A stretch of DNA of 64,000 bases, taken from Candidatus Palauibacter irciniicola (GTDB lineage: Bacteria > Gemmatimonadota > Gemmatimonadetes > Palauibacterales > Palauibacteraceae). The DNA lies in contig VXWG01000053.1 of assembly GCA_009836005.1 (NCBI GenBank), positions 45,722 through 109,721 on the forward strand, written 5' to 3'. Below the pieces are notes generated by a model. It ran no database searches. It was not told the origin of the DNA and saw only the letters and a program-made list of their open reading frames with translations. Shown in pieces: positions 10,834 to 56,564 of this stretch (positions are counted from its first letter, which is position 1; the number at the start of each line of letters is the position of its first letter). A program made the translations under genes and the position numbers.

Positions 10834-10859
10834 TGTCCTCGGTCGCCGCCCGGGTGGAA

Positions 10860-11453
10860 TCAGAAGTAGAGTTGGCAGTTCATGGCCTCGAACGGGCCGT
10901 GGCCGGCCATCGTGTGCAGCCGGCCGGAGGGGGAGAGGCCGGTGAGCACGATCGGCCCCTGCCAGCGCTCGACGTCGGTCGACGCCTCCTCGCTCACGAA
11001 CACGAGGAACTGGTTCCACGCGAGCCGCGCCGTGAGCCGGTTCTCTTCGCCGAGCGTGCCGAGCTGCACCCACTCGTCGAGTTCGGGCTTCGCGGCCCAC
11101 GCGACGTAGACCGCCTCGCCGCGGCGGCGCAGCCGGTCGACCTGGATCTCGACGTCGAACGTCTGGAAGCCGCCGTCGTCCACGGTGATCTCGAACGGCG
11201 AGCCGGGCTGCGTGAGCGTCATCGACCCGCGGCTCCCGGGGGCGCTCTGCGTGCCCGAGAGGGGAACCACTTCGGGCGTGACGAGGCAGGCGTCGATCCG
11301 GGGCGTTGCGTCAACCCACGGCGCCGCGCCGGCTGGAGCCGGGATGTCACTCGGCCCGGCAGCCCGTGCCTCGCCCGATACGAGCGAGCCGAGGGCGATC
11401 GCGAAGACGGCGGTGGCGCCGATCGCGCCGGTGTGCGGTTTCATGCGCTTCAT
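10860..11453 (-). CDS. Small secreted hypothetical protein
   Basis: The C-terminal 197 aa of the 467-aa track ORF start MKRMKPHTGAIGATAVFAIALGSLVSGEARA (signal peptide), with an ATG at 11453. No recognizable domain. It lies between the dioxygenase and MCO genes. Confidence 0.5.
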   Translation of the reverse strand: MKRMKPHTGAIGATAVFAIALGSLVSGEARAAGPSDIPAPAGAAPWVDATPRIDACLVTPEVVPLSGTQSAPGSRGSMTLTQPGSPFEITVDDGGFQTFDVEIQVDRLRRRGEAVYVAWAAKPELDEWVQLGTLGEENRLTARLAWNQFLVFVSEEASTDVERWQGPIVLTGLSPSGRLHTMAGHGPFEAMNCQLYF

Positions 11454-11527: not shown

Positions 11528-12358
11528 TCAGTCCGACGCGGGCCGCCCGGCCCTCCCGCGTCTGCCGCTGCGGCCGTCGGGCCGGCCGGTCTCGGCATCC
11601 GTGAGATCGAGGCCCAGGTCGAAGGTGGCCGCGTATCCGTGGTCCGTCTCGCTGACCCGGGCCATCAGGCTCTCGCCACCGTCGCGGCGAAAGATGCCGT
11701 CGTCCGCGTTGGTCACGGGGCGCCGCCCGCGCGCCGCGTACGGCGCCTGCGCGTGCACTTCGTCCGTGAGCGCCTCGTCGAAGTAGAGCTGCGAGGTGAA
11801 CTCGTACGGCTGGCCGGAGACGTCGGTGCGCACCTTGAAGTGTACGTGCACGGCGCGCCCGCGGTACCAGCCCGGAAAGATCGTCGTGAAACGGGCCAGC
11901 CCCTCCTCGTCCGTGCGCTGGTAGCCCCGGAGGAAGTGCCGTTCCCTCGCCGATTCGGGCGCGCCGTCGTCCTCCACGCCCGAGTACACGCCGTCGGCGT
12001 CGCACTGCCACACGTCGATCAGCGCGCCGGGAAGCGCCGAACAGTCGCCCCGGGAGATTTGCGAGAGGTTGAACCCGAGCGTCAGCGGGATGCCCTCGCT
12101 CACCGTTCCGGTCGACGGATCGGACCGAATGTCGGAGCGTTCGAGCCGCGCGTCGACGAAGAACGGCCCTTCGGTCTGTTCGGGCTTCGCCACGCAGGCG
12201 GGCAGCGCACGGGCGATCCCGTCCGCCTGGGCGGCGAGAGGGGTGCCCGTTCCCAGAACCCACCGACCGGCGGCCAGCGCCCCGCCCCCGACGCCGAGGG
12301 CGGCGAGAACCTCGCGCCGCGTCAGTACCCGACCCCGTTCAATGTCCTCGTGCTCCAT
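11528..12358 (-). CDS. Tat-exported intradiol ring-cleavage dioxygenase family protein
   Basis: Twin-arginine signal TRREVLAALGVGGG. Dioxygenase_C-type motifs PEQTEGPFF, LIDVWQCDADGVYS and HVHFKV. Confidence 0.75.
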   Translation of the reverse strand: MEHEDIERGRVLTRREVLAALGVGGGALAAGRWVLGTGTPLAAQADGIARALPACVAKPEQTEGPFFVDARLERSDIRSDPSTGTVSEGIPLTLGFNLSQISRGDCSALPGALIDVWQCDADGVYSGVEDDGAPESARERHFLRGYQRTDEEGLARFTTIFPGWYRGRAVHVHFKVRTDVSGQPYEFTSQLYFDEALTDEVHAQAPYAARGRRPVTNADDGIFRRDGGESLMARVSETDHGYAATFDLGLDLTDAETGRPDGRSGRRGRAGRPASD

Positions 12359-30506: not shown

Positions 30507-31315
30507 TCAAGGCATATCACCCAGCCCCGTGGCCATCCGCCCCACATATTCTACCACTGGATCCCATACCTCATCGAACTCCTCCTCAGCGCCCGGAGGG
30601 AGCAGGTGAGCCAGGTTGCGCTCCCAGTCAGCGTGGAACTCGTCCCTGCGCTCCAGCAGACGACCCGGGTCGATGACCCCCAATTCGACCTCTCTCGCCT
30701 GCAGTTTCCGCGGGAGGTTGACTCGTACCTTCCGCTCATCCACGTGCTCCAGGAGCGAGAAGATGTCGTACACATCTCTCGATACGGCGTGAAGCCGTTG
30801 ACCGAGAACGGCTCGGACCTTCTCGGACATGACTTCTTCCAAGGCATAACACGTCAACTCGCTCTCTCCGAGATCCTCGGCGTCGGAGAAGGGATGGAAT
30901 AGCGGGCGCGACACGGGGCTGAACGTCAGTACTTCGTTCCGCGTGATGTCGAGGCGAAGACCGGGCGGAGATCCGCCCGAAGCATGCGGTCCGCGCCAAT
31001 AGAGAGTGAACTTGAGGCTCTCGCGCCCGTACTCGTCGTCAATGACTCTCCGCTTCGGTTCCCGGGCCGCGAAGTCGATGCCGCTGGCCCCCTGAACCGC
31101 TGCGAATGCCTCGCCGACCGATTTCTCAAACTCCTCCCAACCAAACCACTGGGTTGCTGTGAAGTCGTCCCACCCTTGAAGATCAGCCGCTTCGCCAGAA
31201 AACGGTGTCCCGCGATTCCTCGGAGGGCCCATCCGAGCGCGTAATCCAACTCTACGATGCGAGGCTCGACACTCGCGGCTCGCGCGCGTCGGCGGATCTC
31301 CGCGTCCTGAATCAT
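30507..31315 (-). pseudogene. abiEii: AbiEii/AbiGii-family nucleotidyltransferase toxin (type IV TA), with the reading frame split between two overlapping ORFs
   Basis: The N-terminal NTase signature RIVELDYALGWALRGIAGHRFLAKRLIFKGGTT is in the frame of track ORF 30926..31441. The DUF1814-like body (SGIDFAAREP...KFTLYWRG...YALEEVMSEKVRAVLG...) is in the frame of track ORF 30507..31445. The junction lies between about 31080 and 31170. Confidence 0.5.
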
Positions 31316-32145
31316 GTCTGCTCGCGGAGCCCTTCCTCCGGGAGATTGATTTCGATGCGCCACCGAGTGGCGATCCGATGAGGCTTTCTCGGAGTGGACG
31401 GATCGAGTCGGCTGATGCCGGCAGTGAGGAGATCCAGCCATTCATTCAGCATCGCCTGCTTCGGAGCATGGGTCAGCTTAACGCTCTCGACAAGAAACCC
31501 GAGCCGCTTCACAACCGCGCCGGAGCCAAAGCGGCGCAGATAACTCGTCATGAGGTCCCAATCGAAGTCGCCATCTCCTCCGAGCAGTGCCTCGCTGACC
31601 TGGGCCACTCCTCCGCTTAGCTCGGGCCTGTCGAGGCAATCTATGATCGTTTTTTCGCGATCCGTGACCTTGACCCGGAATTGTCCGGCACGGTATGCGT
31701 GGCAACCGAAGAACTTCCGAGGCTTCACCCGGACGATCCGAAACCGCATCCCGAGAACCTGCGGTGTGCGGCGTTCCTTGCGGGCGGTCGTCTGCACGTA
31801 CGTAACACGGGGGATCTGTTCGGTGAGGTTCCAGTAGTTGAGGGCAGACCAGTAGCCGACCGTGGCGTGACTCACCAGGTGTCCCGCGATGACGTAGGTG
31901 TCCTCGGTCCAAGTGCGACTGGGGCCGGCCTCGAGTGGAACGATGAGGTACTTCCCCTTCTCAAGACGCTCCAGCCAGCCCTTATCAACGAGTCGTGCCA
32001 ACGCATCCCTGGTCGCCTTGCCTTCGCCAAGCACATCGTACGCATCCTTTGTTGCGAAGATCTGCTTCCCGCTCGCGGCCAAGGTGGTAAGGAATGACGC
32101 CTCGGTGTCGCTGAGGCTTATTATATTACGATACGTCATTACCAC
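31312..32145 (-). CDS. abiEi: AbiEi-family antitoxin / transcriptional regulator (type IV TA)
   Basis: N-terminal winged-helix pattern LARLVDKGWLERLEKGKYLIV. Size 277 aa. The stop overlaps the abiEii start. Lower GC than the flanking DNA. Confidence 0.6.
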   Translation of the reverse strand: MVMTYRNIISLSDTEASFLTTLAASGKQIFATKDAYDVLGEGKATRDALARLVDKGWLERLEKGKYLIVPLEAGPSRTWTEDTYVIAGHLVSHATVGYWSALNYWNLTEQIPRVTYVQTTARKERRTPQVLGMRFRIVRVKPRKFFGCHAYRAGQFRVKVTDREKTIIDCLDRPELSGGVAQVSEALLGGDGDFDWDLMTSYLRRFGSGAVVKRLGFLVESVKLTHAPKQAMLNEWLDLLTAGISRLDPSTPRKPHRIATRWRIEINLPEEGLREQT

Positions 32146-32147
32146 TC

Positions 32148-32219
32148 CTGCATGCGTTAATCACGTATCGAAATGTAATCGATATGGACAGCTTCCGCTA
32201 ATACCGTTCCTGCATGCAG
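32148..32219. promoter_or_regulatory. Nested dyad symmetry in the abiEi promoter: CTGCATGC ... TATCGA-N7-TCGATA ... GCATGCAG
   Basis: Seen directly in the sequence, 3-75 bp upstream of the abiEi start codon, in an AT-rich stretch. Confidence 0.4.
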
Positions 32220-32247
32220 AGCGCCCAAGACGCCGGCGCTGGATCCG

Positions 32248-32973
32248 TCAGTACTTGATGTCGGTTCGGCCGACCGTCATCCCGATGTTGCCGACCCGCC
32301 GGCCCATCGTGTAGTGCTCGCCGCTCCCGGCGGTCATCCCGAAGAAGTCCACGGCGGGCACGATCAGGCGGCCGGCGTCGTCGACCGCGCCCTCGATGGC
32401 GGTCGTCGCCACGACCTCCGCGAGGAAGATCTTCCGCTCGGGCGGCACCTCGAGGGAGTCGAAGATCCGGCACTCGCAGTGGATCGGGGACTCCTCCACC
32501 GTGGGCGCATCGACGACCGTCGCCTCGCCTCTCGTCAGCCCCGAGAGTTCGAACTTGTCGGCCACGCGTCCGGAGTTCATGTCGACGGTGTCGAACGCCT
32601 CGACCATCGATGCAAGCGGGACGTTCAGCACGAACTCGTCGTGGATCTCCAGGAGTTCCCTCGCCTGGTGCTCGAAGGCCGCGCTCACCCCGATCTGGGG
32701 CGGGTCGCCGCTCACGACGAACGTCCACAGCACCGAGATCTCGTCCGGGTCGCCGGGCCGGCCGTTCACGGTGAGCAGGATCGCCGGGACGGGCGGAAGC
32801 ATCGGACCCGGCTCCGCAAGCAACCGGCGAGCCCCGGTGAGCGGCGCCGGTGGCCTACCCCCGCCCACAGGCATCCCCTCGTCGGGTGCACATCCCCAAA
32901 CGGCGGCAACCGCGGCGGCCGCCGAGCCACTCCCCAGAAACCGTCTCCTCGACCAGCCGTCCGTTAATGGCAT
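32248..32973 (-). CDS. Flavin-reductase-like (FMN-binding split-barrel) protein with a Tat signal
   Basis: Tat signal SRRRFLGSGSAAAAVAA. Flavin_Reduct-like core ILLTVNGRPGDPDEISVLWTFVVSGDPPQIGVS. Confidence 0.5.
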   Translation of the reverse strand: MPLTDGWSRRRFLGSGSAAAAVAAVWGCAPDEGMPVGGGRPPAPLTGARRLLAEPGPMLPPVPAILLTVNGRPGDPDEISVLWTFVVSGDPPQIGVSAAFEHQARELLEIHDEFVLNVPLASMVEAFDTVDMNSGRVADKFELSGLTRGEATVVDAPTVEESPIHCECRIFDSLEVPPERKIFLAEVVATTAIEGAVDDAGRLIVPAVDFFGMTAGSGEHYTMGRRVGNIGMTVGRTDIKY

Positions 32974-33018
32974 CTTCTTCACCGCCTCCTCGCGCATAGC
33001 CTGCCGTGCGCCCGGGCA

Positions 33019-34158
33019 TCAATAGATGCCGGGGATGATCCGATATTTCACACGCGCCTGGTACTCGGCCCACTTCTCCGGGCCGTATTTTTCGGCGCAG
33101 TACTGGTCGTCGAAGCGCTGTCGGAAAATGAACAGTCCGACGATGAAGACGAAGTAGGTCCAGGCCCAGGGGTTGGCGAAGTAGCCGAACACGAGGGCGA
33201 TGGAGAGGGAGAAGAAGCCCTCGCCCAGGTAGTTGAAGTGGCGGGCGACGCCCCACAGGCCGCTGCACAGGATCTTGCGGTCGCCGGCCTCGATGTACTC
33301 GGGCTCGATGAGGCCGAGGAACTTGCGCTCGGGCCAGCGCTTGAAGGTGTACTTCTGCATGTTGGCGCCGCGCGTGATGCCCCATGCGATGAGGAACAGC
33401 GTGGGTGCGCCGATCAACCACACCTGTCTCCAGGGCGCCGCGAAGCCCGGGTCCGGGTACACGGCCAGGCCCCACAGCGGCAGGATATAGAGCCACCCGT
33501 ACACCATGATTCCGCCCCAGATCATCTTGAAGCCGAGCTTCTCGTGGATCACGTCGTACGTGTACAGCTGGACGCGCTCGAAGATGAAGTAGTCGAAGAC
33601 GTAGAACGTGAGGAACCCCGCGTACAGGAAGACGCCGGGGTTGGAGTCCGCGCCGAAGAGGCCGTAGTGGTACGCGGCTCCGGAGAGGGCGTTCAGCGAA
33701 AGCATGGTCCCGCCGACGACGTACAGGAACATCTTCACGTCGAAGCGTTCGTTGAAGAACGAAAGCTCGAGGACGCGGCCTTCCCAGAGGGCGGCGAGCG
33801 GGCGCTTCACCTTGCCGCGCGACCCTCCGAACACGGCGAGGAGGGCGAAGACCAGGCACATGACCGTGCCGCCCGCGACCTGGTAGACGGTGGACCGGTA
33901 GAACCAGTCTCGCGGCATCCCGGTGAGTTCGAGCGCCCACACAAGTTCCGCGAGCACGAACACCAGCAGGCCGTTCAGCCGGTAGCCGCGGGGCTCGCCG
34001 GTCTCCGCGTCGATGACGTAGCCGGGCACCCGCCTCCCCGGCAGCGCGAGTTGCACTACGAAGAACGCGGCGCAGATCGCGAGCGGGGCGAGGAAGCCGG
34101 CAAGCGCTTCGGTCCCGGAAAGCGCGAACAGGTGCCCGATGCCCAGCCATTCAATCAT
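33019..34158 (-). CDS. ERG4/ERG24-family sterol reductase homolog (7-dehydrocholesterol / C14 / C24(28) reductase-like)
   Basis: Signature LCSGLWGVARHFNYLGEGFFSLSIAL matching the GLWxxSRHPNYxGE family motif, with multiple TM helices. Starts MIEWLGIGHLF; ATG at 34158 by codon arithmetic. Confidence 0.7.
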   Translation of the reverse strand: MIEWLGIGHLFALSGTEALAGFLAPLAICAAFFVVQLALPGRRVPGYVIDAETGEPRGYRLNGLLVFVLAELVWALELTGMPRDWFYRSTVYQVAGGTVMCLVFALLAVFGGSRGKVKRPLAALWEGRVLELSFFNERFDVKMFLYVVGGTMLSLNALSGAAYHYGLFGADSNPGVFLYAGFLTFYVFDYFIFERVQLYTYDVIHEKLGFKMIWGGIMVYGWLYILPLWGLAVYPDPGFAAPWRQVWLIGAPTLFLIAWGITRGANMQKYTFKRWPERKFLGLIEPEYIEAGDRKILCSGLWGVARHFNYLGEGFFSLSIALVFGYFANPWAWTYFVFIVGLFIFRQRFDDQYCAEKYGPEKWAEYQARVKYRIIPGIY

Positions 34159-34481
34159 CAGAAAAGGTCCTCTCCCGGGAGTGCCGCTGCCTGCCGGAGC
34201 CAGCCTGTCAGGAGGTCCTCGTCCAGTGCGTCGTCCTCGTGGATGTGGAAGTAGCGCACCTGCTCCTGCTTCGATTCGACCGGCGGCGCGGGACGCAGCG
34301 AGGCGCCGTTGAGGAAGGTCACCTTGATGTACCGCGTGAAACAATGGAACGAGAGGAACCAGCCCTGGTTCTCGATGCCGTAGAAGGGCGAGTTCCAGCG
34401 GACCGCCCTGCGGACATCGGGCACGCTCCGCTCGATGAGCGCGTCGAGGCGGCGACCGACCTCGCGTTTCCAGCCCGGCAT
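34158..34481 (-). CDS. DUF1801 (YdhG-like) domain protein
   Basis: Pattern RWNSPFYGIENQGWFLSFHCFTRYIKVTFLNG. The stop overlaps the downstream start (TGATG). Confidence 0.6.
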   Translation of the reverse strand: MPGWKREVGRRLDALIERSVPDVRRAVRWNSPFYGIENQGWFLSFHCFTRYIKVTFLNGASLRPAPPVESKQEQVRYFHIHEDDALDEDLLTGWLRQAAALPGEDLF

Positions 34482-34570
34482 GGCCGTGATGTAGTCCTGT
34501 ACCGGCGCATCTCCGTCGCCCTTCGGAATCTGGGGATTGCCGCCGGAGAGGAGTCGCGCGGCCAGGCCCG

Positions 34571-36037
34571 CTATCCCTCCGTCCGCGCGAACCGCAGGTT
34601 CCTGACCCGCCCGGCGTCCACCATCAGCGCCTCGTACCGGCCGCCGACGAGTTCGGAGAAGCGGAGGGTCGGCCCGTCCTCGGTCGTGAGTTGTCCGTCG
34701 GCTTCGGCCACGAGTGCGACGGGGTCCCGCCGCCCAACGTGCAGCATGAGCCCGGAGGCGCCTTCCTCCACGATCCGATACGTGGCGTGCAGTTCCGGGC
34801 TGTAGAAGGATCCGGCGTAGCGCGCGCGATTCGGAACGTCGTGGTCCGGCGGAGCCTCCCCGGCAGCCTCTTCCTCCGCAGCCTCCTCGTCCTCGCCTTC
34901 CGCGACGTCCTCGGGCGGGGCCATCGCGTCTTCCAGGTAGATCTCGGCCGTGCTCGCGATCAGGGACATGGGATCGCTCCGCGACCGGTTACACAGGGCG
35001 ACGAACGAGTAGCCGGCGTCAGGATAGCGGGACATGCCCGTGCGGTAGCCGACCCACGAGCCGCTGTGCCCGACGGTGGCCAGCCCCCGGTGCTCGCCGT
35101 GCGAGAGACCGAAGGCGTAGGGAATCGTGTCGCCGGAAGTGAGCACGCCCCGTTCGTGCATCAGCGCGACCCATTCGGGCCCGCCGACCGTGCCCTCGGT
35201 GAGGTTGCGGTCCCATGCGGGCCACTCCTCCACCGAAGTGTAGATGCCGCCGTCTCCGACGACGTCGAGCGTCGTCATGTTGATCCGGAAGCCGTCATCG
35301 GTGGGCGAATAACCGGTCGCCCGGCCGGGGACGACTTCGTTGTGGTCGTCGTGGAAGTGCGTGCGCGGCATGCCCAGAGGATCGAAGAACTCGGTCCGGG
35401 CGAACTCCCTCAGGCTTTGTCCCGAAACCTCGGCCACGATCTCGGCGAGCAGGACGTAGCCGGAGTTGCTGTACAGGTACTCGGAGCCCGGAGGAAAGTT
35501 GAGTTCGCGCTGTCGGTGGATCGCGTCGAGGATGTCCTGATTCGTGATGAAATCCTCGCTCCGGTTCCCCGCCAGGGTGAAGAGCCCGAGGTAGTCGCGC
35601 ACGCCGGACGTGTGGTGGATCAGGTGTCGGACGGTGGGAGAGTCGGCGTAGTCGGGGAATTCGGGGACGTAGCGCTGGACGGGAGCATCCAGATCCACCT
35701 CTCCCCGGAGGGCGAGCAGGGCGACCGCGCCGGCCGTGAACTGCTTGGAGACGGACGCGATGCGGTAGATGGTCTCGGGGCCGTTCGGGATGCCGTGGTC
35801 GAGGTTGGCGGTGCCGTAGCCGGCCGCATGGACAAGGCGGCCGTCCCGGATCACGCCCAGGGAGCAGCCGGGTCCGTCGGCGCTGGCGTAGTCGGCGAAG
35901 ACCGCGTCGACCCGGGCCGACAGCCCGGCGTCCCCGTCGGGGGCGCAGCCTGCGAGTGCGCCCACCAGGACCGCGGCGATCACGGCCACGCCGGTCGGAT
36001 GACGGCAGACGCCCCGCGACTGCGTGGTCAGGATCAC
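34571..36037 (-). CDS. Lipoprotein serine hydrolase of the beta-lactamase family
   Basis: Lipobox ...VAVIAAVLVGALAGC, SxxK in ASVSKQF, a YxN-like YSNSGY motif and HSGSWVGY near the C-terminus. A GTG start at 36037 overlaps the HD gene stop. Upstream of that, the 762-aa track ORF is noise. Confidence 0.7.
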   Translation of the reverse strand: MILTTQSRGVCRHPTGVAVIAAVLVGALAGCAPDGDAGLSARVDAVFADYASADGPGCSLGVIRDGRLVHAAGYGTANLDHGIPNGPETIYRIASVSKQFTAGAVALLALRGEVDLDAPVQRYVPEFPDYADSPTVRHLIHHTSGVRDYLGLFTLAGNRSEDFITNQDILDAIHRQRELNFPPGSEYLYSNSGYVLLAEIVAEVSGQSLREFARTEFFDPLGMPRTHFHDDHNEVVPGRATGYSPTDDGFRINMTTLDVVGDGGIYTSVEEWPAWDRNLTEGTVGGPEWVALMHERGVLTSGDTIPYAFGLSHGEHRGLATVGHSGSWVGYRTGMSRYPDAGYSFVALCNRSRSDPMSLIASTAEIYLEDAMAPPEDVAEGEDEEAAEEEAAGEAPPDHDVPNRARYAGSFYSPELHATYRIVEEGASGLMLHVGRRDPVALVAEADGQLTTEDGPTLRFSELVGGRYEALMVDAGRVRNLRFARTEG

Positions 36038-36717
36038 CCCCTCGGCCAGAGGCTGAACGGTTCGCGCGCGAAGATCCGGCGGACCATCGGTTCGAAGAAC
36101 TCGAGCGGCAGCGACTCGTAGTCGGGGTCGAACGAGGACTGGTCCCAGCGGTGGCAGAAGTCCACCGCGTCCTGGTACCAGGGGTGGTCGCGGTATCGGT
36201 CGCGCGCGTTGCGGTCGCGGCCCAGGTGGTGGGCGTAGTAGACGAGCTGGAACAGGCCGTGGTGCCGGACGATCCAGTGCGTGCGCTCGGTGACGAAGGG
36301 GCGGAGCAGCAGGGCGGCCAGTTCGCCGTGGCTGTGCGGAGCCAGCAGATCGTCGATGTCGTGCAGGAGTGCGGCCACGACCATCTCCTCGTCCGCACCG
36401 TCCCGGTGGGCGCGGGTCGCGCTCTGCAGGGAATGTTCCAGCCGGTCGACCTGGTAGCCGCCGACGGAGCCGGACAGCTGGCGGAGGTGCGCCAGTACGC
36501 GGTCGGCGGTGCGCGCGGCGAACTCGTCCTCGAGGCGCGAGAGCAGTTCGTAGTCCTCGCGGGTGCCGTCCTCCATGCGGGTGAAGCTCACGACGGGGCC
36601 GCTCGGCTCTGTGCCGGCCTCCGTGCTCGTCCCGGCCGTACGGGGCATGCCGGTCACTCTCCGCTGAGGGTTCGATCGGGGATTCCTCGCCGCAGCGTCG
36701 GCCCAAGCGAAGGGCAT
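36034..36717 (-). CDS. HD-domain protein with extra His ligands (PhnZ/TmpB/MIOX-like candidate diiron oxygenase)
   Basis: HD motif LLHDIDD plus upstream H (EHSLQ, AHRDG) and downstream H/HH/D series (PHSHGE, THWIVRHHG, YAHH, DHP, HRWD). Roughly 200-228 aa; start is ambiguous (TTG 36723, ATG 36717 or ATG 36648). Confidence 0.6.
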   Translation of the reverse strand: MPFAWADAAARNPRSNPQRRVTGMPRTAGTSTEAGTEPSGPVVSFTRMEDGTREDYELLSRLEDEFAARTADRVLAHLRQLSGSVGGYQVDRLEHSLQSATRAHRDGADEEMVVAALLHDIDDLLAPHSHGELAALLLRPFVTERTHWIVRHHGLFQLVYYAHHLGRDRNARDRYRDHPWYQDAVDFCHRWDQSSFDPDYESLPLEFFEPMVRRIFAREPFSLWPRG

Positions 36718-36785
36718 TGTCAAGATCGCTCGGGCGTCCGTAGCGTTCGCTGCAGGCCGGTAACCACGGACTGGGAGGATCGACC

Positions 36786-37901
36786 ATGGGTGCCTCGATC
36801 AGCAGCCTCGCGCAGAATGGCGACGCCCTGACGGCGGTCTGGAGCGACGGCGAACGCACCGATCTCCCCTACCTCTGGCTGCGGGACAACTGCGGCTGCG
36901 GCGAGTGCTGCGTGGAGCAGACCACGGAGAAACGGTTCCATGTCTTCCGCGTCCCCAGCGACCTGAAGCCGTCGAAGGTCGAGATCGAAGCCGCCGGATC
37001 CGACGACGAGGCGATTTCCATCGCGTGGCCGGACGGACACCGCACGCGCCACCGGTCGAGCGACGTCCGCGGCCTCCTGAGCCGGCCTCGTCTCGAGTTG
37101 CAGTACTGGGACGGGCAGTTCCAGCCGCGGAGGTTCAACTACCAGCGGTTCCTGGCGGACGACAGCGCGGCGGCGGAGTTGATCGAGGAGTTTCTGCGCA
37201 CCGGGGTCTGCGTGCTGGTCGACGCCCCCACCGAACCGGATTCGCTGGAGGAACTCGCGCCCCGGCTGGGTCCGGTCCGGGAGGTCCTGTTCGAGCGCAT
37301 CCACAACGTCAAGCTCGATCCGAAGGGATACAACATCGCGCACACGGCTCTGGCCGTCGGCGTGCACAACGACTTCACCAGCTACACGTGGCCCCCGAGC
37401 GTGCAGGCGTTGCACATGCTGGTGAACGAGTGCGAGGGCGGCGCGTCGACGGTCGTGGACGGCTTCGGCCTGCTCGAGGCGCTACGGAGCGAGCACCCGG
37501 ACAAGTTCGACGTGCTGTGCTCGGTGCAGGTGCCGTTCCGCATCTTCAGCGACGAATACGAGTGCTACGCGGCCAATCCCATGGTCGACCTCGACAGCGA
37601 CGGGGAGATCAGGATGATCCGCTTCAACACGGCGCAGATGCAGGCCGTTCCCCTGTCGGAGCCCCGGCTGGGCGAGTTCTATGCCGCCTACCACGAACTG
37701 TCGAGCCGCGTCAACGACCCCGGTGCCCAGGTGACCTTCCGGCTGGAGGGCGGGATGATCCTGCTGTGTGCCGGGCACCGCGTCCTCCACGGCCGGACCG
37801 AGATGGTGTCGAACGGGGCGCGCCACCTGCAGGACGCCTACTTCGAACACGACAACGTCCGCACCCACCTCAGGCTCCTCCGCCGCACCGGCCGCGCCTG
37901 A
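36786..37901 (+). CDS. Gamma-butyrobetaine-hydroxylase-like Fe(II)/2-oxoglutarate dioxygenase (TauD/TfdA fold) with an N-terminal Cys-rich DUF971-type domain
   Basis: N-terminus WLRDNCGCGECC (Zn-ribbon-like). The C-terminal TauD-like region contains HNDFTSYTW...D and HRVLHGR. Confidence 0.7.
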   Translation: MGASISSLAQNGDALTAVWSDGERTDLPYLWLRDNCGCGECCVEQTTEKRFHVFRVPSDLKPSKVEIEAAGSDDEAISIAWPDGHRTRHRSSDVRGLLSRPRLELQYWDGQFQPRRFNYQRFLADDSAAAELIEEFLRTGVCVLVDAPTEPDSLEELAPRLGPVREVLFERIHNVKLDPKGYNIAHTALAVGVHNDFTSYTWPPSVQALHMLVNECEGGASTVVDGFGLLEALRSEHPDKFDVLCSVQVPFRIFSDEYECYAANPMVDLDSDGEIRMIRFNTAQMQAVPLSEPRLGEFYAAYHELSSRVNDPGAQVTFRLEGGMILLCAGHRVLHGRTEMVSNGARHLQDAYFEHDNVRTHLRLLRRTGRA

Positions 37902-52183: not shown

Positions 52184-53713
52184 ATGACTCCGTCGCGCCG
52201 CCTCGCGGTTTCGTCCGCCGCCGTCCTGACCCTGACCGCCTTCGCTCCCGCCCCCACGGTCGACCTCGTCCCCGCCCTCGCGTGCGATGAACTGACCGCC
52301 ATGTCCTGGAGCGGTTTCACGCTGGACGAGGTGTCGGAGGTCGAGGCCGGAGCCAACGACCCGGCGCACTGCCGCGTGCGCGGGACGATCGACGAGGAGA
52401 TCCACTTCGAACTCCTCCTCCCGCTGGCCGAAGACTGGAACGGCCGCTTCCTCATGGGCGGCGGCGGTGGGTTCGTGGGGAGCGTACAGAACCAGGCGCT
52501 CCAGTTCGCGGGGCCGGTCTCGGTCCTGACCCGAGGGTTCGCCACGGTGGGGACGGACACGGGACACCAGGGCCCGGGCATCGACGCGAGCTGGGCGCTG
52601 AACCGGCCCGACCGCGAGGTGAACTTCGGCCACCGGGCGGTGCACGTGACGGCGGAAACGGCGAAGACGATCGTCCGCCTCTTCTACGGCCGCGACATCG
52701 AATACTCCTACTTCATCGGCTGCTCGCGCGGCGGGGGCCAGGCGATGATGTCGTCGCAGCGCTACCCGGACGACTTCGACGGCATCGTGTCCGGGGCGCC
52801 GGCCTACGACTGGCCCGGCCTCGGCGCCTTCTTCCTCCAGACCCAGCAGGCCCTGTATCCCGATCCGAACGACCTCGCGACCCCGGTGATCACCGACGAG
52901 GCGGCGGCCATCCTCGAAGCCGCGATTCTCGAGGCGTGCGACGCGAACGACGGCGTGGAGGACGGGTTCATGACGAACCCTCTGGCATGCGATATCGACA
53001 TCGCTTCGATCGAGGGACTGACCGACGAACAGCGGGCGGCCGCGGAAGTGGTCTACGGCGGCGCCCGCGTGGGAGATCGGCACGTTTACCCCGGCTTCCC
53101 GTTCGGGGGCGAGACCGACCAGGGCGGATGGAGGAGTTGGGTCACGGGGCGCGAGATGCAGCTGGGTCCGGCCGGACCCAACCTCCACTACGCCTTCGGC
53201 ACGCAGATGTACAAGTACATCATCTTCGACGACCCGGAGTTCGACTACTCCACGTACGACTTCAGCGACTACTTCTCGTGGGAGGAGGACACGCGCCGCG
53301 CCCGCGCGATCCTGAACGCGACGGACACGGACCTGAGCGGCTTCAAGACGGCGGGTGGGAAGCTGATCCTGTGGACCGGCTGGTCGGACTCGGCGATTCC
53401 CGCCAGCGGCACGATCGCCTACTACGAGAGCGTGGCCGCGGGCGACGAGGAGGCGGACGACTACACGCGGCTGTTCATGCTGCCCGGTGTGCTGCACTGC
53501 GCGGGTGGCCCGGGTCCCGACTTCGTCGACTGGATCGCCGCCATCCAGTCGTGGGTGGAGGAGGACGAGGCCCCCGAGCGGCTCGTCGCGTCGAAGTTCG
53601 GCGAGTCCGGCGTCGAGATGCAGCGGCCCGTGTGCCCGTGGCCGGCCTACGCCGCCTACAACGGCACCGGAGACCCGAAGCAGGAGGACAGCTTCGAATG
53701 CGTCGCACCGTGA
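52184..53713 (+). CDS. Secreted tannase / feruloyl-esterase family alpha/beta hydrolase
   Basis: Signal peptide. GCSRGG nucleophile motif in the tannase-family context, plus Cys residues typical of the lid disulfide. Confidence 0.7.
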
Positions 53714-54165
53714 TTACGCTCAGAGTGAATGGCGAGACGCACTCGCTGGACGTGGAACCCTCGACCCCGCTGCTCTACGTCCTCCGGAACGACCTCGGAC
53801 TCAGGGGGCCCCGGTTCGGCTGCGGCCTCGGCCAGTGCGGGACGTGCACGGTCCTCATGGACGGCCGCGCCATCCGCTCGTGCATGCGGCCGGTGTCCCG
53901 CGCGGAGGGCGAGATCACCACGCTCGAGGGACTCTCTGCCGACGGAGAGCTGGATCCCGTGCAGCAGGCGTGGATCGACGAGCAGGTGCCGCAGTGCGGG
54001 TACTGCCAGAACGGCCAGATTCTCACGGCCAAGGCGCTCCTCGACCGCAATCCGGACCCGAGTGACGAGGAGATTCGGCAGGGGATGAACGGCGCCCTCT
54101 GCCGCTGCATGACGTACTACCGGATCCAGTCCGCCGTGAGACGCGCCGCGGAGGCGAACCGATGA
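53698..54165 (+). CDS. [2Fe-2S]-binding small subunit of a molybdenum hydroxylase (IorA/CoxS-like)
   Basis: Plant-type ferredoxin cluster [12 protein letters not shown] and a second cluster QCGYCQNGQ...CRCMTY. Overlaps the tannase stop by 16 nt. Confidence 0.8.
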
Positions 54166-56564
54166 AGCGCCCCGAGGAGTTCCCGGCGGGGATGGAAGAG
54201 GCCCTCGTCCCGTGGGAGGGAAGCACCTCCCGCCGTGACTTCGTCAAGACGTCGGGGCTCTTCGTCCTCGGCTTCAGCAGCGTGGGCTTCAGCGGCGTGG
54301 GCGGCATCGGCCGGAACGGGTCCGGCGACCCCGGCGAGGCGAACCCGTATCCGGACCCGGATTATCTCCAGCTCGACTCGTGGCTCGTCGTGCACGAGGA
54401 CGGCACGGCCACCTTCTACGTCGGCAAGACCGACGGCGGGCAGGGGACCGGGACCGCCATGCGCCAGATGATGTGCGACGAACTCGACCTCGCCTACGAC
54501 CGGGCCACGCTCGTCATGGGCCGCACGGACATGACGGTGGACCAGGGCGGTTCGGGCGGTTCGGACGCGATCGAGCGGGATGCCCTGGCGGCGCGGCGGG
54601 TCGCGGCGGAGGCGCGCCGTGTCCTGCTGGAACTGGCTTCGGAGCGCTTCGAGGTCCCCGCCGACGAACTTGCCGTCAGCGAAGGCGTCATCTCCGTGGC
54701 CGCGGAGCCCGCCCGCACGGCCACGTACGGCCAGCTGATCGGCGGCCGACGCTTCGATGTTGCCCTCACGGGAAGGAACGTCAACGAGACGACCGGCCTC
54801 GCGGCCGTGAAGCCGGTCCGGGAACTGAAGATCGTCGGGCAGTCCGTCCCGCGGTACGACATCCCCGCCAAGGTCGACGGATCGCTCGAGTGGGCGGTCG
54901 ACGTGCGGCTCCCCGGCATGGTCCACGCGCGGAACGTGCGGCCGCCCTTCGCGGGCGCGCGGCTCGTCTCCATCGACGAATCTTCGGTGCGCGACATCCC
55001 CGGCTTCATCCGCGTCTTCCGTGAGGGGAACTACGTCGCGGTCGTCTGCGAGCGGGAGGAACAGGCGATCCAGGCGGCGGAGAGCCTCGCCCTCGAGTGG
55101 GAGCAGCCGGAAACGGCGCCGTTCCCGTCCTCCGAGGACCTTTTCGACTACATGCGGGGCGCGACCCCGGTCGGCGCGGGGACCGGAACATCTCCTCGTC
55201 CCCGCGTGGAGGGGGATCCCGACGCGGCGCTGGCGGGCGCGGCGTCGGTCGTTGAAGCCGGCTACGACATCCCCTTCCAGGGACACACGGCGATCGGGCC
55301 CGCCCACGCCGTGGCCGACCCCTCGGACGGGCAGATGACGGTCTACACGAACGACATGAAGCCCTACAGCCACCGCACAGGGATCGCCGAGTTCCTCGGC
55401 ATGCCGCCGGAGCGGGTGCGGGTGATCTGGATGGAGGGTCCGCAGCTCTACGGGCGCACGGCGGCGGACGACGCGGGCTTCGAGGCGGCGTACCTGGCCC
55501 GCGAGCTGGGCCGCCCCGTGCGGATGCAGTGGATGCGGCACGAGGAGACGGCCTGGGACACGAAGGGCCCGGCCTTCGCCATCGACCTGCGCGGGGGGCT
55601 GGACGACGCCGGCAACGTGGTCGCGCTCGACTATCGCGCCCGGATCGCGAACTACGCGCACGTCGGCTACAACCAGGCCGACACGGTGCTCATCGCCCAG
55701 CTCATGGGCATCCGGCCCGAGCGGCCGTCTCCCGGCGGCGGCCGGGGCCCGGACGAGATGTACCACATCCCGAACCGGCGGGAGGAGACGCGGGCCGTCC
55801 GCTTCCCGCTCGCCTTCGAGACGCCGCTCCGCACCGGCAACCTGCGCGACCCCAACGGGCCGCAGACGACCTTCGCCGGCGAATCGTTCATCGATGAGAT
55901 GGCCGCGGCCGCGAACGCGGACCCGGTCGAGTTCCGCCTCCGTCTCCTGCGCGGGACGACGGAGGACGACGCGACGTTCCGCCGGGCCCGCTCCATCGCC
56001 GTCGTCGAGGCGGCGGCCGAGGCGTTCGGCTGGGAGCCGCGACCCTCGCCCCGGGAGCCGGGCGACGGGCCCATCCTCACCGGGCGCGGCATCTCCTACG
56101 GGTACCGCGTACAGACGGCCGTCGCGACGGTCGCGGAGGTGGAGGTCGACCGGGAGAGCGGGCGCGTGTGGGTCAAGCGCATGGTGTGTGCGCACGACTG
56201 CGGCCTCGTGATCAACCCCGACGGTCTTGAAAGCACGATCCAGGGGAACCTCCTGCACGGGATCAGCCGGACCCTGTACGAGGAGGTGCAGTTCGACGGC
56301 GAGCGGGTGACCAGCGTCGACTGGCGCACGCACCCGACGCTGACGCACCGGGACGCGCCCGAGCAGATCGATGTCGTGATCGTGAACGGCGACCCGAACC
56401 CGGACCGGCCGGACCTGCCGCACTACGGAGCGGGGGAGCCCTCGCACCGCACGGTCCCCGCGGCGATCGCGAACGCGATCCACGACGCGACCGGCGTGCG
56501 CATGCGCCGCATCCCGCTGCGCCCGGAGCGTGTGCTCGCGGAACTCACGGCGGCGGGAGCGTAG
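54162..56564 (+). CDS. Molybdopterin-binding large subunit of a xanthine-dehydrogenase-family oxidoreductase (IorB / aldehyde oxidoreductase-like), Tat-exported
   Basis: Tat signal [15 protein letters not shown] with MoCo-binding domains. ATGA overlap with the small-subunit stop. No FAD subunit present. Confidence 0.8.

What the first reader, a model, noticed from the sequence alone, without database searches (positions are those of the whole stretch)
32248..34481. Bacterial ERG4/ERG24-type sterol reductase homolog coupled to DUF1801, next to a Tat-signal flavin-reductase-like protein
The LCSGLWGVARHFNYLGE signature places this protein in the eukaryote-type sterol C14 / C24(28) / 7-DHC reductase family, which is rare in bacteria. 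Its start overlaps the stop of a DUF1801 gene (TGATG). Immediately downstream is a flavin-reductase-like protein carrying a twin-arginine signal, which is odd for an NAD(P)H:flavin reductase. Together these hint at a lipid (sterol or hopanoid-like) modification function with an unusual redox partner.
Basis: partly seen in the sequence, partly recalled or inferred. Interest (0 to 1): 0.5.

Follow-up and report, generated by a model that had tools for sequence, protein, structure and literature searches.

The report
Second sterol-reductase paralogue of sponge symbionts
The gene is a real, intact membrane reductase of the sterol-reductase (ERG4/ERG24) superfamily. It belongs to a very conserved, horizontally spread family in sponge-associated bacteria that sits beside sterol-synthesis genes in related genomes, but the DUF1801 and exported flavoprotein neighbours look like local bystanders rather than partners.

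Summary
All three genes exist as described on the minus strand: DUF1801 (34158-34481), a 379-aa ERG4/ERG24 protein (33019-34158, TGATG overlap) and a Tat-signal Flavin_Reduct protein (32248-32997). The reductase ("ERG-379") has the Methylomicrobium sterol-reductase fold (AF2 pLDDT 94; TM 0.80 to 4QUV). It keeps the NADPH residues and the predicted catalytic Tyr; the predicted catalytic Asp is Glu.

It is not rare. Family-specific motifs occur in 534 species genomes. The best 80 span at least 10 phyla at 70-97% identity, and most are sponge or coral MAGs.

It is not the canonical C14 reductase. Two genomes carry both ERG-379 and a separate 363-368-aa ERG24 inside an OSC-CYP51 sterol cluster. 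In one Palauibacter genome that cluster lies directly beside the DUF1801-ERG-379-flavoprotein genes. Other loci place ERG-379 next to CYP51, sterol methyltransferases, GPP34-P450 fusions or sterol-sensing transporters.

DUF1801 and flavoprotein linkage is largely confined to Palauibacter and close relatives. In the two flavoprotein loci outside that group that I examined, no ERG gene was nearby; one sits by a TRAP transporter.

Best reading: a second NADPH-dependent sterol C=C reductase of unknown regiochemistry (side-chain Δ24(28)/Δ24(25), or Δ7). The window itself holds no OSC, CYP51 or SMT.

The parts
33019..34158 (-). ERG-379: a 379-aa integral-membrane ERG4/ERG24-superfamily reductase, the core of the finding
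   Evidence: PF01222, E 8.4e-35. PDB 4quv (MaSR1), E 4.6e-35 over residues 29-379. AF2 pLDDT 94.4 and Foldseek TM 0.80 to 4quv. N309 and R346 match the MaSR1 NADPH residues N359 and R395; Y186 matches Y241; E313 replaces D363. Homologues are 379 aa and at least 74% identical across phyla.
34158..34565 (-). DUF1801 (YdhG-like) gene. Annotated as 34158-34481 (107 aa) but probably starts at CTG 34565 (or ATA 34574). Its stop overlaps the reductase start (TGATG).
   Evidence: PF08818, E 6.5e-18. The overlap is read directly from the sequence. The upstream 25 codons are conserved at the protein level, mostly through synonymous changes, in 10 loci. Relatives use ATG (L013) or GTG (L019) further upstream. 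Adjacency to ERG-379 occurs only in Palauibacter-like loci.
32248..32997 (-). Tat-signal, probably lipid-anchored, flavoredoxin-like FMN-binding protein (Flavin_Reduct domain). The likely true start is ATG 32976.
   Evidence: PF01613, E 6.8e-17. TIGR01409 scores 16.3 bits against a 16.7 cut-off. Best PDB matches are flavoredoxin 3bnk (3.8e-13) and FMN-binding protein 1eje. An RR motif (typically WSRRRFLE...AAVWGC) is present in 97 of 120 homologues, with a following [GAS]-Cys in 94. It lies downstream of ERG-379 only in L006-L013, L076 and L079. In L092 it sits next to DctPQM; in L093 there is no ERG neighbour either.
34571..36037 (-). Context only: beta-lactamase-fold serine hydrolase (D-aminopeptidase-like) with a lipoprotein-type signal (LAGC), directly upstream in the same gene string
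   Evidence: PF00144, E 3.4e-55. NCBIfam D-aminopeptidase, 2e-47, below its cut-off. Found next to ERG-379 in Gemmatimonadota-like loci.
36034..36648 (-). Context only: HD-domain PhnZ/TmpB-like oxygenase, first gene of the minus-strand string. Its stop overlaps the hydrolase start by 4 nt.
   Evidence: Phn-HD TIGR03276, 5.4e-10, and TmpB NF049941, 3.9e-08, both below their cut-offs.

Best explanation
The central gene encodes a polytopic inner-membrane, NADPH-dependent reductase of a carbon-carbon double bond in a sterol. It is a member of a distinct bacterial clade, called ERG-379 here, within the ERG4/ERG24 superfamily.

By homology with MaSR1 and ERG24, the mechanism would be as follows. NADPH binds in a cytoplasm-facing pocket (N309, R346). 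The sterol enters laterally from the bilayer. A Tyr/acid pair (Y186/E313) protonates the alkene, and hydride is delivered from the nicotinamide.

ERG-379 is not the C14 reductase of the pathway. Sterol-producing sponge symbionts carry a separate 363-368-aa ERG24 next to CYP51 and OSC for that step. ERG-379 is an additional reductase that has spread by horizontal transfer among sponge and coral symbionts of many phyla.

I infer that it saturates another double bond. The most likely target is a side-chain bond left by, or competing with, the sterol methyltransferases (Δ24(28) or Δ24(25)). The alternative is Δ7. The substrate could be made by the symbiont or taken from the host.

Shown: family membership, fold, conserved cofactor residues, paralogy with the cluster ERG24, recurrent linkage to sterol genes, and cross-phylum conservation.

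Inferred: the sterol substrate, the regiochemistry, and activity in this particular strain.

The DUF1801 and Tat-flavoprotein genes are probably co-transcribed neighbours without a role in the reaction.
For: Family and fold:
- PF01222 scores 120.8 bits, DUF1295 23.7 bits.
- 4quv matches at 4.6e-35.
- The AF2 model has pLDDT 94.4 and pTM 0.92. TM-score to 4quv is 0.80; the next fold, SRD5A2, is 0.36.

Residues:
- MaSR1 N359 and R395 (NADPH pocket; PMC4951196) correspond to N309 and R346.
- The predicted catalytic Y241 and D363 (PMC12489058) correspond to Y186 and E313. Glu is also present at this position in the cluster-type ERG24.
- All 11 superfamily-invariant columns are kept.

Paralogy:
- In L013 (Ca. 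Palauibacter sp.) a 368-aa ERG4_ERG24 (PF01222 2e-71; 4quv 8e-70) lies in a string of 3β-HSD, Rieske, ERG24, CYP51 (4e-106 to 7jj1) and OSC (DCTAE motif). This string is directly and divergently adjacent to DUF1801-ERG-379-flavoprotein.
- In a Binatia genome, one 4.8-Mb contig holds a full cluster: ERG24 of 363 aa, CYP51, an SE-OSC fusion, 2 SMTs, GPP34-P450, Rieske proteins and 3β-HSD. The same contig carries ERG-379 about 2.6 Mb away (L085).
- The two cluster ERG24s are 80% identical to each other and 39-40% to MaSR1, but only 31-34% to ERG-379.

Other sterol linkage:
- CYP51 (1.9e-104) lies divergently next to ERG-379 in L012.
- An SMT with a Sterol_MT_C domain lies within 5 kb in L010 and L011, and next to ERG-379 in L029, L064/L067 and L088 (a truncated SMT fragment also lies at the L025 contig end). 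GPP34-P450 fusions, Rieske/KshA_C proteins and MMPL/sterol-sensing transporters accompany some of these.

Spread:
- 534 species genomes carry the motifs.
- Between-phylum identity averages 79% (range 70-97%), against 83.5% within phyla.

Literature: TM7SF2/ERG24, SMT, LSS and CYP51 are enriched in Ircinia symbionts and horizontally transferred, with some ERG24 copies 'scattered' (PMC9531527).
Against: - There are no biochemical data for any member of this clade.
- The 64-kb window has no OSC, CYP51, SMT or squalene-synthesis gene. The rest of this MAG could not be searched, so this strain may lack a sterol pathway.
- Most of the 80 loci show no sterol gene within 8 kb, and there is no universal neighbour.
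- The second PROSITE-type sterol-reductase motif, as I recall it (HR-x2-RD), reads FRQRFD here, and the Arg position varies within the family.
- The family scores only half as well as the cluster ERG24 against PF01222 and 4quv.
- In L012, CYP51 is the immediate neighbour and no cluster-type ERG24 lies within 8 kb. That fits a C14 role there.
- The regiochemistry (Δ24(28), Δ24(25) or Δ7) rests only on which double bonds remain and on SMT linkage.
Confidence: 0.6

Rival explanations
1. ERG-379 is simply the bacterial sterol C14 reductase (ERG24/TM7SF2 orthologue). It would reduce the Δ14 bond left by CYP51.
For: The nearest characterised relatives are Δ14 reductases: 4quv and 9l5r, and representatives that a source names 'delta14-sterol reductase'. 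CYP51 is the divergent immediate neighbour in L012, with no other ERG24 within 8 kb. The predicted catalytic Tyr is kept.
Against: Genomes from two phyla carry a dedicated ERG24 of 363-368 aa beside CYP51 and OSC in addition to ERG-379. That ERG24 matches MaSR1 far better (8e-70 against 4.6e-35). ERG-379 is only 31-34% identical to it. ERG-379 groups apart from the MaSR1-type clade in the distance tree.
Confidence: 0.15
2. ERG-379 reduces a non-sterol membrane lipid, such as a polyprenol, another isoprenoid or an unsaturated lipid. The occasional sterol-gene neighbours would then be coincidental co-location on mobile DNA.
For: NCBI names the family 'DUF1295 domain-containing protein'. Most loci, this window included, have no sterol gene nearby. 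The sterol-reductase signature motifs are only partly kept. Relatives in the wider fold class (SRD5A3, TECR, ICMT) act on non-sterol lipids (general knowledge).
Against: PF01222 scores far above DUF1295. The whole-chain fold matches MaSR1 (TM 0.80), not SRD5A or ICMT (0.28-0.40). Independent linkage to SMT, CYP51, OSC and sterol-sensing transporters occurs in Gemmatimonadota, Dehalococcoidia and Thermodesulfobacteriota/Dadabacteria.
Confidence: 0.17
3. One reading: DUF1801, the reductase and the Tat flavin-reductase-like protein form one functional lipid-modifying module, with the flavoprotein as an unusual redox partner.
For: The genes are tightly packed (1-nt overlap; a 21-42-nt gap) with no terminator-like site on the coding strand. 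The ERG-379/flavoprotein pair recurs in L076 and in a second copy in Ca. P. rhopaloidicola (L079).
Against: DUF1801 linkage is restricted to Palauibacter-like loci. It is absent in L005/L015 and split by CYP51 in L012. The flavoprotein is separated by about 6 kb of IS elements in L005. Its homologues in L092 and L093 have no ERG neighbour, and the L092 copy sits by DctPQM. It is predicted to be exported by Tat and lipid-anchored, whereas the NADPH pocket of this fold faces the cytoplasm. None of the other phyla carrying ERG-379 has either neighbour.
Confidence: 0.05

Closest known systems
MaSR1, the Δ14-sterol reductase of Methylotuvimicrobium alcaliphilum (PDB 4QUV), and eukaryotic ERG24/TM7SF2/LBR
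   Same: Same Pfam family (PF01222). Whole-chain fold match (TM 0.80). The NADPH-pocket Asn and Arg and the predicted catalytic Tyr are conserved. The C-terminal KYG...Y...PxxY region is conserved.
   Different: Only 29-33% identical. About 50 residues shorter at the N-terminus. The predicted catalytic Asp is Glu. HR-x2-RD reads FRQRFD, TWD reads TYD, and GWMLxWGD reads GFKMIWGG. ERG-379 coexists with a closer MaSR1 homologue in the same genomes, so it probably acts on a different double bond.
The sponge-symbiont sterol gene cluster (CSG of Kelly et al. 2022, PMC9531527; the msb cluster of a Melophlus symbiont, PMC7074536) and its ERG24/MsbC reductase
   Same: Same hosts and the same set of phyla. 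The same pattern of high cross-phylum identity and horizontal transfer. Physically adjacent to ERG-379 in L013, and on the same chromosome in a Binatia genome.
   Different: The cluster reductase is 363-368 aa and always lies beside CYP51 and OSC. ERG-379 is a separate paralogue (31-34% identity) that usually lies elsewhere. The published work does not, as far as I could read, separate the two paralogues.
Fungal ERG4 (sterol C24(28) reductase) and Coxiella burnetii Δ24 sterol reductase CBU1206 (my own knowledge: Gilk et al. 2010)
   Same: Same superfamily. They are the precedent for a second ERG4/ERG24-type enzyme that saturates the side chain after methyl transfer, and for bacteria that modify sterols they do not make. 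ERG-379 is repeatedly linked to SMT genes.
   Different: No sequence comparison with ERG4 or CBU1206 could be run here because I had no reliable sequences for them. Functional equivalence is only a hypothesis.
DUF1295 (PF06966), steroid 5α-reductase and ICMT-type membrane enzymes
   Same: Distantly related fold core, and a weak Pfam hit (23.7 bits) over the C-terminal half.
   Different: Far weaker sequence and structure similarity (TM 0.28-0.40). These have 7-8 TM architectures, against the MaSR1-type architecture here.

Membership tests
ERG4/ERG24 superfamily (Pfam PF01222) | Score above the curated Pfam gathering threshold over most of the model | tested here: met
   120.8 bits against a cut-off of 27, covering profile positions 78-432 of 432.
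ERG4/ERG24 superfamily (Pfam PF01222) | MaSR1-type polytopic fold | tested here: met
   AF2 pLDDT 94.4, pTM 0.92. Foldseek against 4quv_A: TMq 0.80, TMt 0.77, rmsd 3.5 Å over 376 columns.
ERG4/ERG24 superfamily (Pfam PF01222) | NADPH-pocket residues (MaSR1 N359 and R395, equal to LBR N547 and R583) | tested here: met
   N309 and R346 are invariant in the family and nearly invariant or invariant across 63 superfamily sequences.
ERG4/ERG24 superfamily (Pfam PF01222) | Predicted catalytic Tyr/Asp pair (MaSR1 Y241 and D363) | tested here: inconclusive
   Y186 is kept. The acid is Glu313, not Asp. The cluster-type ERG24 of the same genomes also has Glu.
ERG4/ERG24 superfamily (Pfam PF01222) | PROSITE-type signature 2, [LIVM]2-[HR]-R-x2-R-D-x3-C-x2-K-Y-G (pattern recalled from memory) | tested here: not met
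   The sequence is FIFRQRFDDQYCAEKYG. The [HR] position is F, and the second R is F, L, D or I within the family. The C...KYG part is kept.
Sterol Δ14-reductase orthologue (ERG24/TM7SF2/MaSR1) | Being the closest homologue of MaSR1 in its genome, and linked to CYP51/OSC | tested here: not met
   L013 and a Binatia genome carry a different ERG24 (363-368 aa; 8e-70 to 4quv) beside CYP51 and OSC. ERG-379 scores 4.6e-35 to 4quv and is 31-34% identical to that ERG24.
Sterol Δ14-reductase orthologue (ERG24/TM7SF2/MaSR1) | NADPH-dependent reduction of Δ8,14-diene sterols | not testable with these tools
   Needs an enzyme assay or yeast erg24Δ complementation.
DUF1295 (PF06966) | Best-scoring family for the protein | tested here: not met
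   23.7 bits (cut-off 20.4) over residues 210-370 only, against 120.8 bits for PF01222. NCBI's name 'DUF1295 domain-containing protein' reflects this weaker hit.
Tat-exported protein (downstream flavoprotein) | Twin-arginine signal (S/T-R-R-x-F-L-K-type motif followed by a hydrophobic stretch) | tested here: inconclusive
   TIGR01409 scores 16.3 bits against a 16.7 cut-off. An RR motif is present in 97 of 120 homologues, with a following [GAS]-Cys in 94. No dedicated signal-peptide predictor was available.
NAD(P)H:flavin reductase (Flavin_Reduct, PF01613) | Domain present; NAD(P)H-dependent flavin reduction | tested here: inconclusive
   The domain is present (6.8e-17). The closest solved relatives are flavoredoxins and FMN-binding proteins (3bnk, 1eje, 2d5m). 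Activity is not testable here.
DUF1801 (PF08818) | Score above the Pfam threshold | tested here: met
   65.4 bits against a cut-off of 27.2. The function of the family is unknown.

The most novel reading that the evidence does not exclude
ERG-379 is the missing side-chain reductase of the bacterial sterol-alkylation route. Working after the symbiont sterol methyltransferases, it would saturate Δ24(28)- or Δ25-type bonds. Sponge symbionts, or symbionts acting on host sterols, could then produce saturated 24-alkyl sterols, including 24-isopropylcholesterol. This bears directly on whether 24-isopropylcholestane is a reliable sponge biomarker. Its spread at 70-97% identity through more than 10 phyla would mark it as a niche-defining gene of the sponge holobiont.
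Probability: 0.25. Interest if true: 0.75.

Novelty: new variant of a known kind. Interest (0 to 1): 0.5.

Why it matters
Sterols and their fossil steranes are used as markers of eukaryotes. 24-isopropylcholestane in particular is used as evidence for the earliest sponges.

Sponge symbionts are now known to carry OSC-CYP51-ERG24 clusters and methyltransferases that can build the 24-isopropyl side chain (PMC9531527, PMC10070321). No bacterial enzyme has been assigned to saturating the resulting side-chain double bonds.

ERG-379 is a concrete, testable candidate for that step, or for remodelling host sterols. It is a second, very conserved reductase paralogue that travels horizontally with the sterol toolkit.

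The finding also shows that current annotation ('DUF1295 domain-containing protein', or a blanket 'delta14-sterol reductase') merges two functionally distinct paralogues. For the window itself the result is more modest: one intact copy of this family in a Palauibacter-like symbiont, with no sterol genes nearby.

Tried and rejected
- AF2 on a shallow alignment of 16 near-identical homologues gave an unusable model (pLDDT 45). It was replaced by a 63-sequence alignment.
- NCBIfam had no model for the reductase or for DUF1801.
- De novo clustering of neighbours in 80 loci found no universal partner. The largest non-self clusters were antisense artefacts or lineage-specific genes.
- The contexts of the nearest outgroup proteins P0125 and P0129 were uninformative. 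P0131 (42% identical) lies in an SDR, SRPBCC and Rieske/KshA_C operon.
- Two other '379-aa' genes near homologues (in L092 and L086) were checked and are unrelated.
- The promoter and terminator scan of 31900-37000 gave nothing above the shuffled background.
- I searched the window for SMT, P450, sterol-sensing RND and amine oxidase by tblastn, and ran Pfam on 29 of its ORFs. No sterol gene turned up.
- The original MaSR1 paper was not available. Residue roles were taken from PMC4951196 and PMC12489058.
- Names for representative proteins were mostly absent, so a labelled ERG4/ERG24/DHCR7 phylogeny could not be built. The tree is a simple neighbour-joining tree on the C-terminal 245 residues.
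- I considered whether ERG-379 is itself the reductase of the published cluster, because the gene lengths are similar. I rejected this once L013 and L096 showed a different reductase in that position.
Full report
**1. The observation**

The window has about 69% G+C. It is identical to NCBI GCA_009840115.1 contig VXOJ01000007.1. Its closest named relatives are Candidatus Palauibacter species (Gemmatimonadota), whose epithets (irciniicola, rhopaloidicola, poriticola) name sponge and coral hosts.

Three minus-strand genes lie at the stated coordinates.
- DUF1801, 34158-34481: PF08818, 6.5e-18.
- A 379-aa ERG4_ERG24 protein, 33019-34158: PF01222, 8.4e-35, 120.8 bits. DUF1295 scores only 23.7 bits.
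- A Flavin_Reduct protein, 32248-32997: PF01613, 6.8e-17.

The TGATG stop/start overlap is real. The twin-arginine motif is real. It scores just under the TIGR01409 cut-off (16.3 against 16.7 bits). An RR motif, typically WSRRRFLE...AAVWGC, occurs in 97 of 120 homologues, and a [GAS]-Cys follows it in 94 of those. This suggests a Tat-exported lipoprotein.

Two corrections apply.
- The DUF1801 frame is conserved at the protein level for about 25 codons upstream of the annotated ATG. The changes between relatives there are mostly synonymous, and no canonical start codon is available. The gene therefore probably starts at CTG 34565 or ATA 34574.
- The flavoprotein probably starts at ATG 32976.

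**2. What the reductase is**

The only solved relatives are the bacterial Δ14-sterol reductase MaSR1 (4quv, 4.6e-35 over residues 29-379) and a 592-residue chain deposited as Delta(14)-sterol reductase (9l5r).

With a diverse 63-sequence alignment, AlphaFold gave a confident model (pLDDT 94.4, pTM 0.92). The model superposes on MaSR1 over nearly the whole chain (TM 0.80). SRD5A2, PbSRD5A and ICMT are far behind (TM 0.28-0.40).

The NADPH-pocket residues MaSR1 N359 and R395 (LBR N547 and R583; PMC4951196) correspond to N309 and R346. Both are invariant in the family. Of the predicted catalytic pair Y241/D363 (PMC12489058), the Tyr is kept (Y186) and the Asp is Glu (E313). All 11 positions that are invariant across the 63 superfamily sequences are present.

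The protein is therefore a credible active NADPH-dependent membrane reductase of the sterol-reductase fold. It is not a DUF1295/ICMT-type protein.

**3. A distinct, very conserved and horizontally spread family**

A search of 5.8 billion proteins gave 1156 homologues. The best 120 are nearly all 376-397 aa and at least 74% identical. Where a source names them, they are 'DUF1295 domain-containing protein' from Gemmatimonadetes, Gammaproteobacteria, Acidimicrobiaceae and Dadabacteria MAGs.

In one genome per species, the motifs DYF[IV]FERV and WGG..YGW matched 559 stretches, of which 534 encode a relative. The best 80 come from Gemmatimonadota, Dehalococcoidia/SAR202, Thermodesulfobacteriota, Nitrospirales, Nitrospinota, Acidobacteriota, Binatia, Latescibacterota, Opitutales and others. 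Their isolate labels (SB066x, RHO, COS, APA, Plut, jk18x, and the UUID-named assemblies that I take to be from a symbiosis genome project) are, to my knowledge, sponge and coral MAG series. That attribution is an inference from names, not a tool result.

Mean identity between phyla is 79% (range 70-97%), against 83.5% within phyla. The gene's G+C follows that of each host genome. This pattern means repeated horizontal transfer plus strong purifying selection.

Against 1.84 billion 50%-identity representatives, the family collapses into a single full-length cluster (P0121). The next full-length relatives are 49% and 42% identical. Eukaryote-type representatives, where named 'delta14-sterol reductase', match only residues about 135-379, at 36-45% identity. 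In a distance tree the family groups with a few short bacterial proteins, apart from the large clade that includes MaSR1.

Motif comparison shows a mixed character:
- Tyr186 and D189-Y190, as in the MaSR1 type;
- LYTYD, NYLGE and the loss of the second Arg of HR-x2-RD, as in the other large clade.

**4. Is it linked to sterols?**

Not in this window. Pfam scans of 29 ORFs and tblastn with sterol-cluster proteins found no OSC, CYP51, SMT or related gene in the 64 kb. Related loci tell a different story.

(a) L013, a complete Ca. Palauibacter sp. chromosome with ERG-379 89% identical. A full sterol cluster lies on the opposite strand, directly upstream of DUF1801-ERG-379-flavoprotein. It comprises:
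- a 3β-HSD/epimerase-family SDR;
- a Rieske/VanA_C oxygenase;
- a 368-aa ERG4_ERG24 (PF01222 2e-71; 4quv 8e-70);
- a genuine CYP51 (4e-106 to 7jj1);
- an OSC with the DCTAE motif.

This is the gene order of the published 'CSG' and msb clusters (PMC9531527; PMC7074536).

(b) L012, another Palauibacter genome. A CYP51 (1.9e-104) lies between DUF1801 and ERG-379, divergent from the latter.

(c) L010 and L011 (ERG-379 93-94% identical). A methyltransferase with the Sterol_MT_C domain (6.8e-21) lies 4.7 kb upstream.

(d) Dehalococcoidia (L029), Thermodesulfobacteriota (L064/L067), a Dadabacteria-labelled contig (L088/89) and a Gemmatimonadota MAG (L025). Here ERG-379 lies among several of the following:
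- SMT with Sterol_MT_C;
- GPP34-P450 fusions;
- Rieske/KshA_C proteins;
- MMPL/sterol-sensing RND transporters;
- TP_0789-like proteins;
- an amine-oxidase-family flavoprotein.

(e) A Binatia genome. One 4.8-Mb contig carries a large cluster: FA_hydroxylase, Rieske/KshA_C, GPP34-P450, a 363-aa ERG4_ERG24, CYP51, an SE-OSC fusion, two SMTs, Rieske, 3β-HSD and an amine oxidase. The same contig carries ERG-379 about 2.6 Mb away (L085). This shows that the GPP34-P450 and Rieske/KshA_C neighbours seen in (d) are bona fide members of the sterol cluster.

The cluster-type reductases of Palauibacter and Binatia are 80% identical to each other and 39-40% to MaSR1, but only 31-34% to ERG-379. ERG-379 is thus a second paralogue in sterol-producing symbionts, not the cluster's C14 reductase.

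The CYP51 family shows the same cross-phylum identity pattern (69-81%). This agrees with the horizontal transfer reported by Kelly et al..

**5. The neighbours proposed as partners**

*DUF1801.* It precedes ERG-379 only in about nine Palauibacter-like loci. It is absent in L005/L015 and separated by CYP51 in L012.

*The flavoprotein.* It follows ERG-379 in the same loci and also in L076 and L079. L079 is a second ERG-379 copy in Ca. P. rhopaloidicola, so the pair can move together. Several points argue against a partnership.
- In L005 the flavoprotein lies about 6 kb away, behind IS elements.
- Its homologues in L092 and L093 have no ERG neighbour. The L092 copy sits beside the DctPQM TRAP transporter. 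In the window the flavoprotein is likewise near DctPQM, separated from it by an inserted AbiEi/AbiEii module and a GNAT gene.
- Its closest structures are flavoredoxins and FMN-binding proteins, not NAD(P)H:flavin reductases.
- It is predicted to be exported, whereas this reductase fold binds NADPH on the cytoplasmic side.

I therefore regard both genes as co-transcribed bystanders. In the window they belong to a tight five-gene string: HD-oxygenase, β-lactamase-fold hydrolase, DUF1801, ERG-379 and flavoprotein. The junctions are overlaps of 1-4 nt or gaps of at most 42 nt, and there is no terminator-like site on that strand.

**6. Mechanism and rivals**

The best-supported reading is a second NADPH-dependent sterol C=C reductase (confidence 0.6).

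The regiochemistry is inferred only. The cluster already supplies the Δ14 reductase, and SMTs are the most frequent sterol neighbour. A side-chain bond (Δ24(28) after methyl transfer, as for fungal ERG4, or Δ24(25), as reported for Coxiella CBU1206; both from my own knowledge) is therefore the leading candidate. Δ7 is possible where an FA_hydroxylase-type desaturase is present.

The substrate may be symbiont-made or host-derived. Many loci lack sterol genes nearby, and some carry sterol-sensing transporters, which leaves room for the host-derived option.

The rivals are:
- a plain C14 reductase (0.15);
- a non-sterol lipid reductase (0.17);

**7. Comparison with what is known, and novelty**

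Enrichment of 'TM7SF2/ERG24' in sponge symbionts and the ERG24-CYP51-LSS cluster are published (PMC9531527, PMC7074536). Bacterial SMTs from sponge symbionts have been characterised (PMC10070321). What I did not find described is a second, more conserved reductase paralogue with its own motif set that usually lies outside the cluster. A full-text search for GPP34-P450 fusions in bacteria also found nothing.

I class the finding as a new variant of a known kind. It is of moderate interest because it gives a specific candidate for an unassigned step in bacterial sterol side-chain chemistry.

For this particular window the claim must stay modest. It holds one intact copy of the family, with no sterol genes within 64 kb and no experimental data.

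Noticed in passing
window 36786-37901 (+) and 36034-36648 (-): A divergent pair: a TauD/GBBH-family dioxygenase (TmpA-like, NF049936 1.4e-69; gamma-butyrobetaine dioxygenase TIGR02409 3.4e-71) and an HD-domain PhnZ/TmpB-like oxygenase. All hits are below the curated cut-offs. This looks like an oxidative C-P or quaternary-amine cleavage pair, as in 2-(trimethylammonio)ethylphosphonate catabolism. The pair is conserved next to the hydrolase and ERG-379 in Palauibacter-like loci.
   Followed up: partly
window 34482-34574 (-): The DUF1801 gene seems to use a non-canonical start (CTG 34565 or ATA 34574, the latter overlapping the stop of the upstream hydrolase). About 25 upstream codons are conserved as protein, mostly through synonymous changes, in 10 loci. 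Gene callers start at the internal ATG.
   Followed up: partly
window 30507-32145 (-): An AbiEi antitoxin and AbiEii nucleotidyltransferase toxin module in the lowest-G+C stretch of the window (0.63 against about 0.69). It is inserted between the flavoprotein and the GNAT/DctPQM genes. It is present in only some related loci.
   Followed up: partly
L088 3239-5257 and 5629-7647 (-); L029 10803-12854 (+); L096 5851-7878 (+); also L025, L064, L067: Proteins of 672-683 aa that fuse an N-terminal GPP34 (Golgi phosphoprotein 3, phosphoinositide-binding) domain to a cytochrome P450. The P450 part is only distantly CYP51-like (6e-22). They are embedded in symbiont sterol clusters. No paper in the searched library mentions such fusions in bacteria.
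   Followed up: partly
L013 1-7513 (-), L012 6441-7829 (-), L010 2226-3338 (+): Within the genus Palauibacter, the spot upstream of ERG-379 holds different sterol genes in different genomes. One has a full OSC-CYP51-ERG24-Rieske-SDR cluster, one a lone CYP51 (79% identical to the other one), and one an SMT. This suggests an insertion hot spot or repeated independent acquisitions.
   Followed up: yes
window 32248-32997 (-) and homologues P0296-P0415: A whole family of roughly 240-aa Flavin_Reduct/flavoredoxin-like proteins carries a conserved Tat motif, followed by an invariant Cys in an atypical lipobox (A-V-W-G-C). This implies periplasmic, lipid-anchored FMN proteins in Gemmatimonadota and Acidobacteriota. 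One examined copy (L092) sits next to a DctPQM TRAP transporter.
   Followed up: partly
L091 4774-10133 (+): A more distant ERG4/ERG24 relative (P0131, 361 aa, 42% identical) sits in an apparent operon with three SDRs, a Polyketide_cyc2/SRPBCC protein, a Rieske/KshA_C oxygenase, a sulfotransferase and a TP_0789-like protein. This is another uncharacterised steroid-like tailoring cluster.
   Followed up: no
window 2547-3683 (+) and 9142-11100 (-): Two multicopper oxidase genes, plus a dioxygenase (11528-12358), a tannase/feruloyl esterase (52184-53713) and a molybdopterin oxidoreductase (54162-56564) elsewhere in the window. Together these suggest aromatic or phenolic compound metabolism.
   Followed up: no
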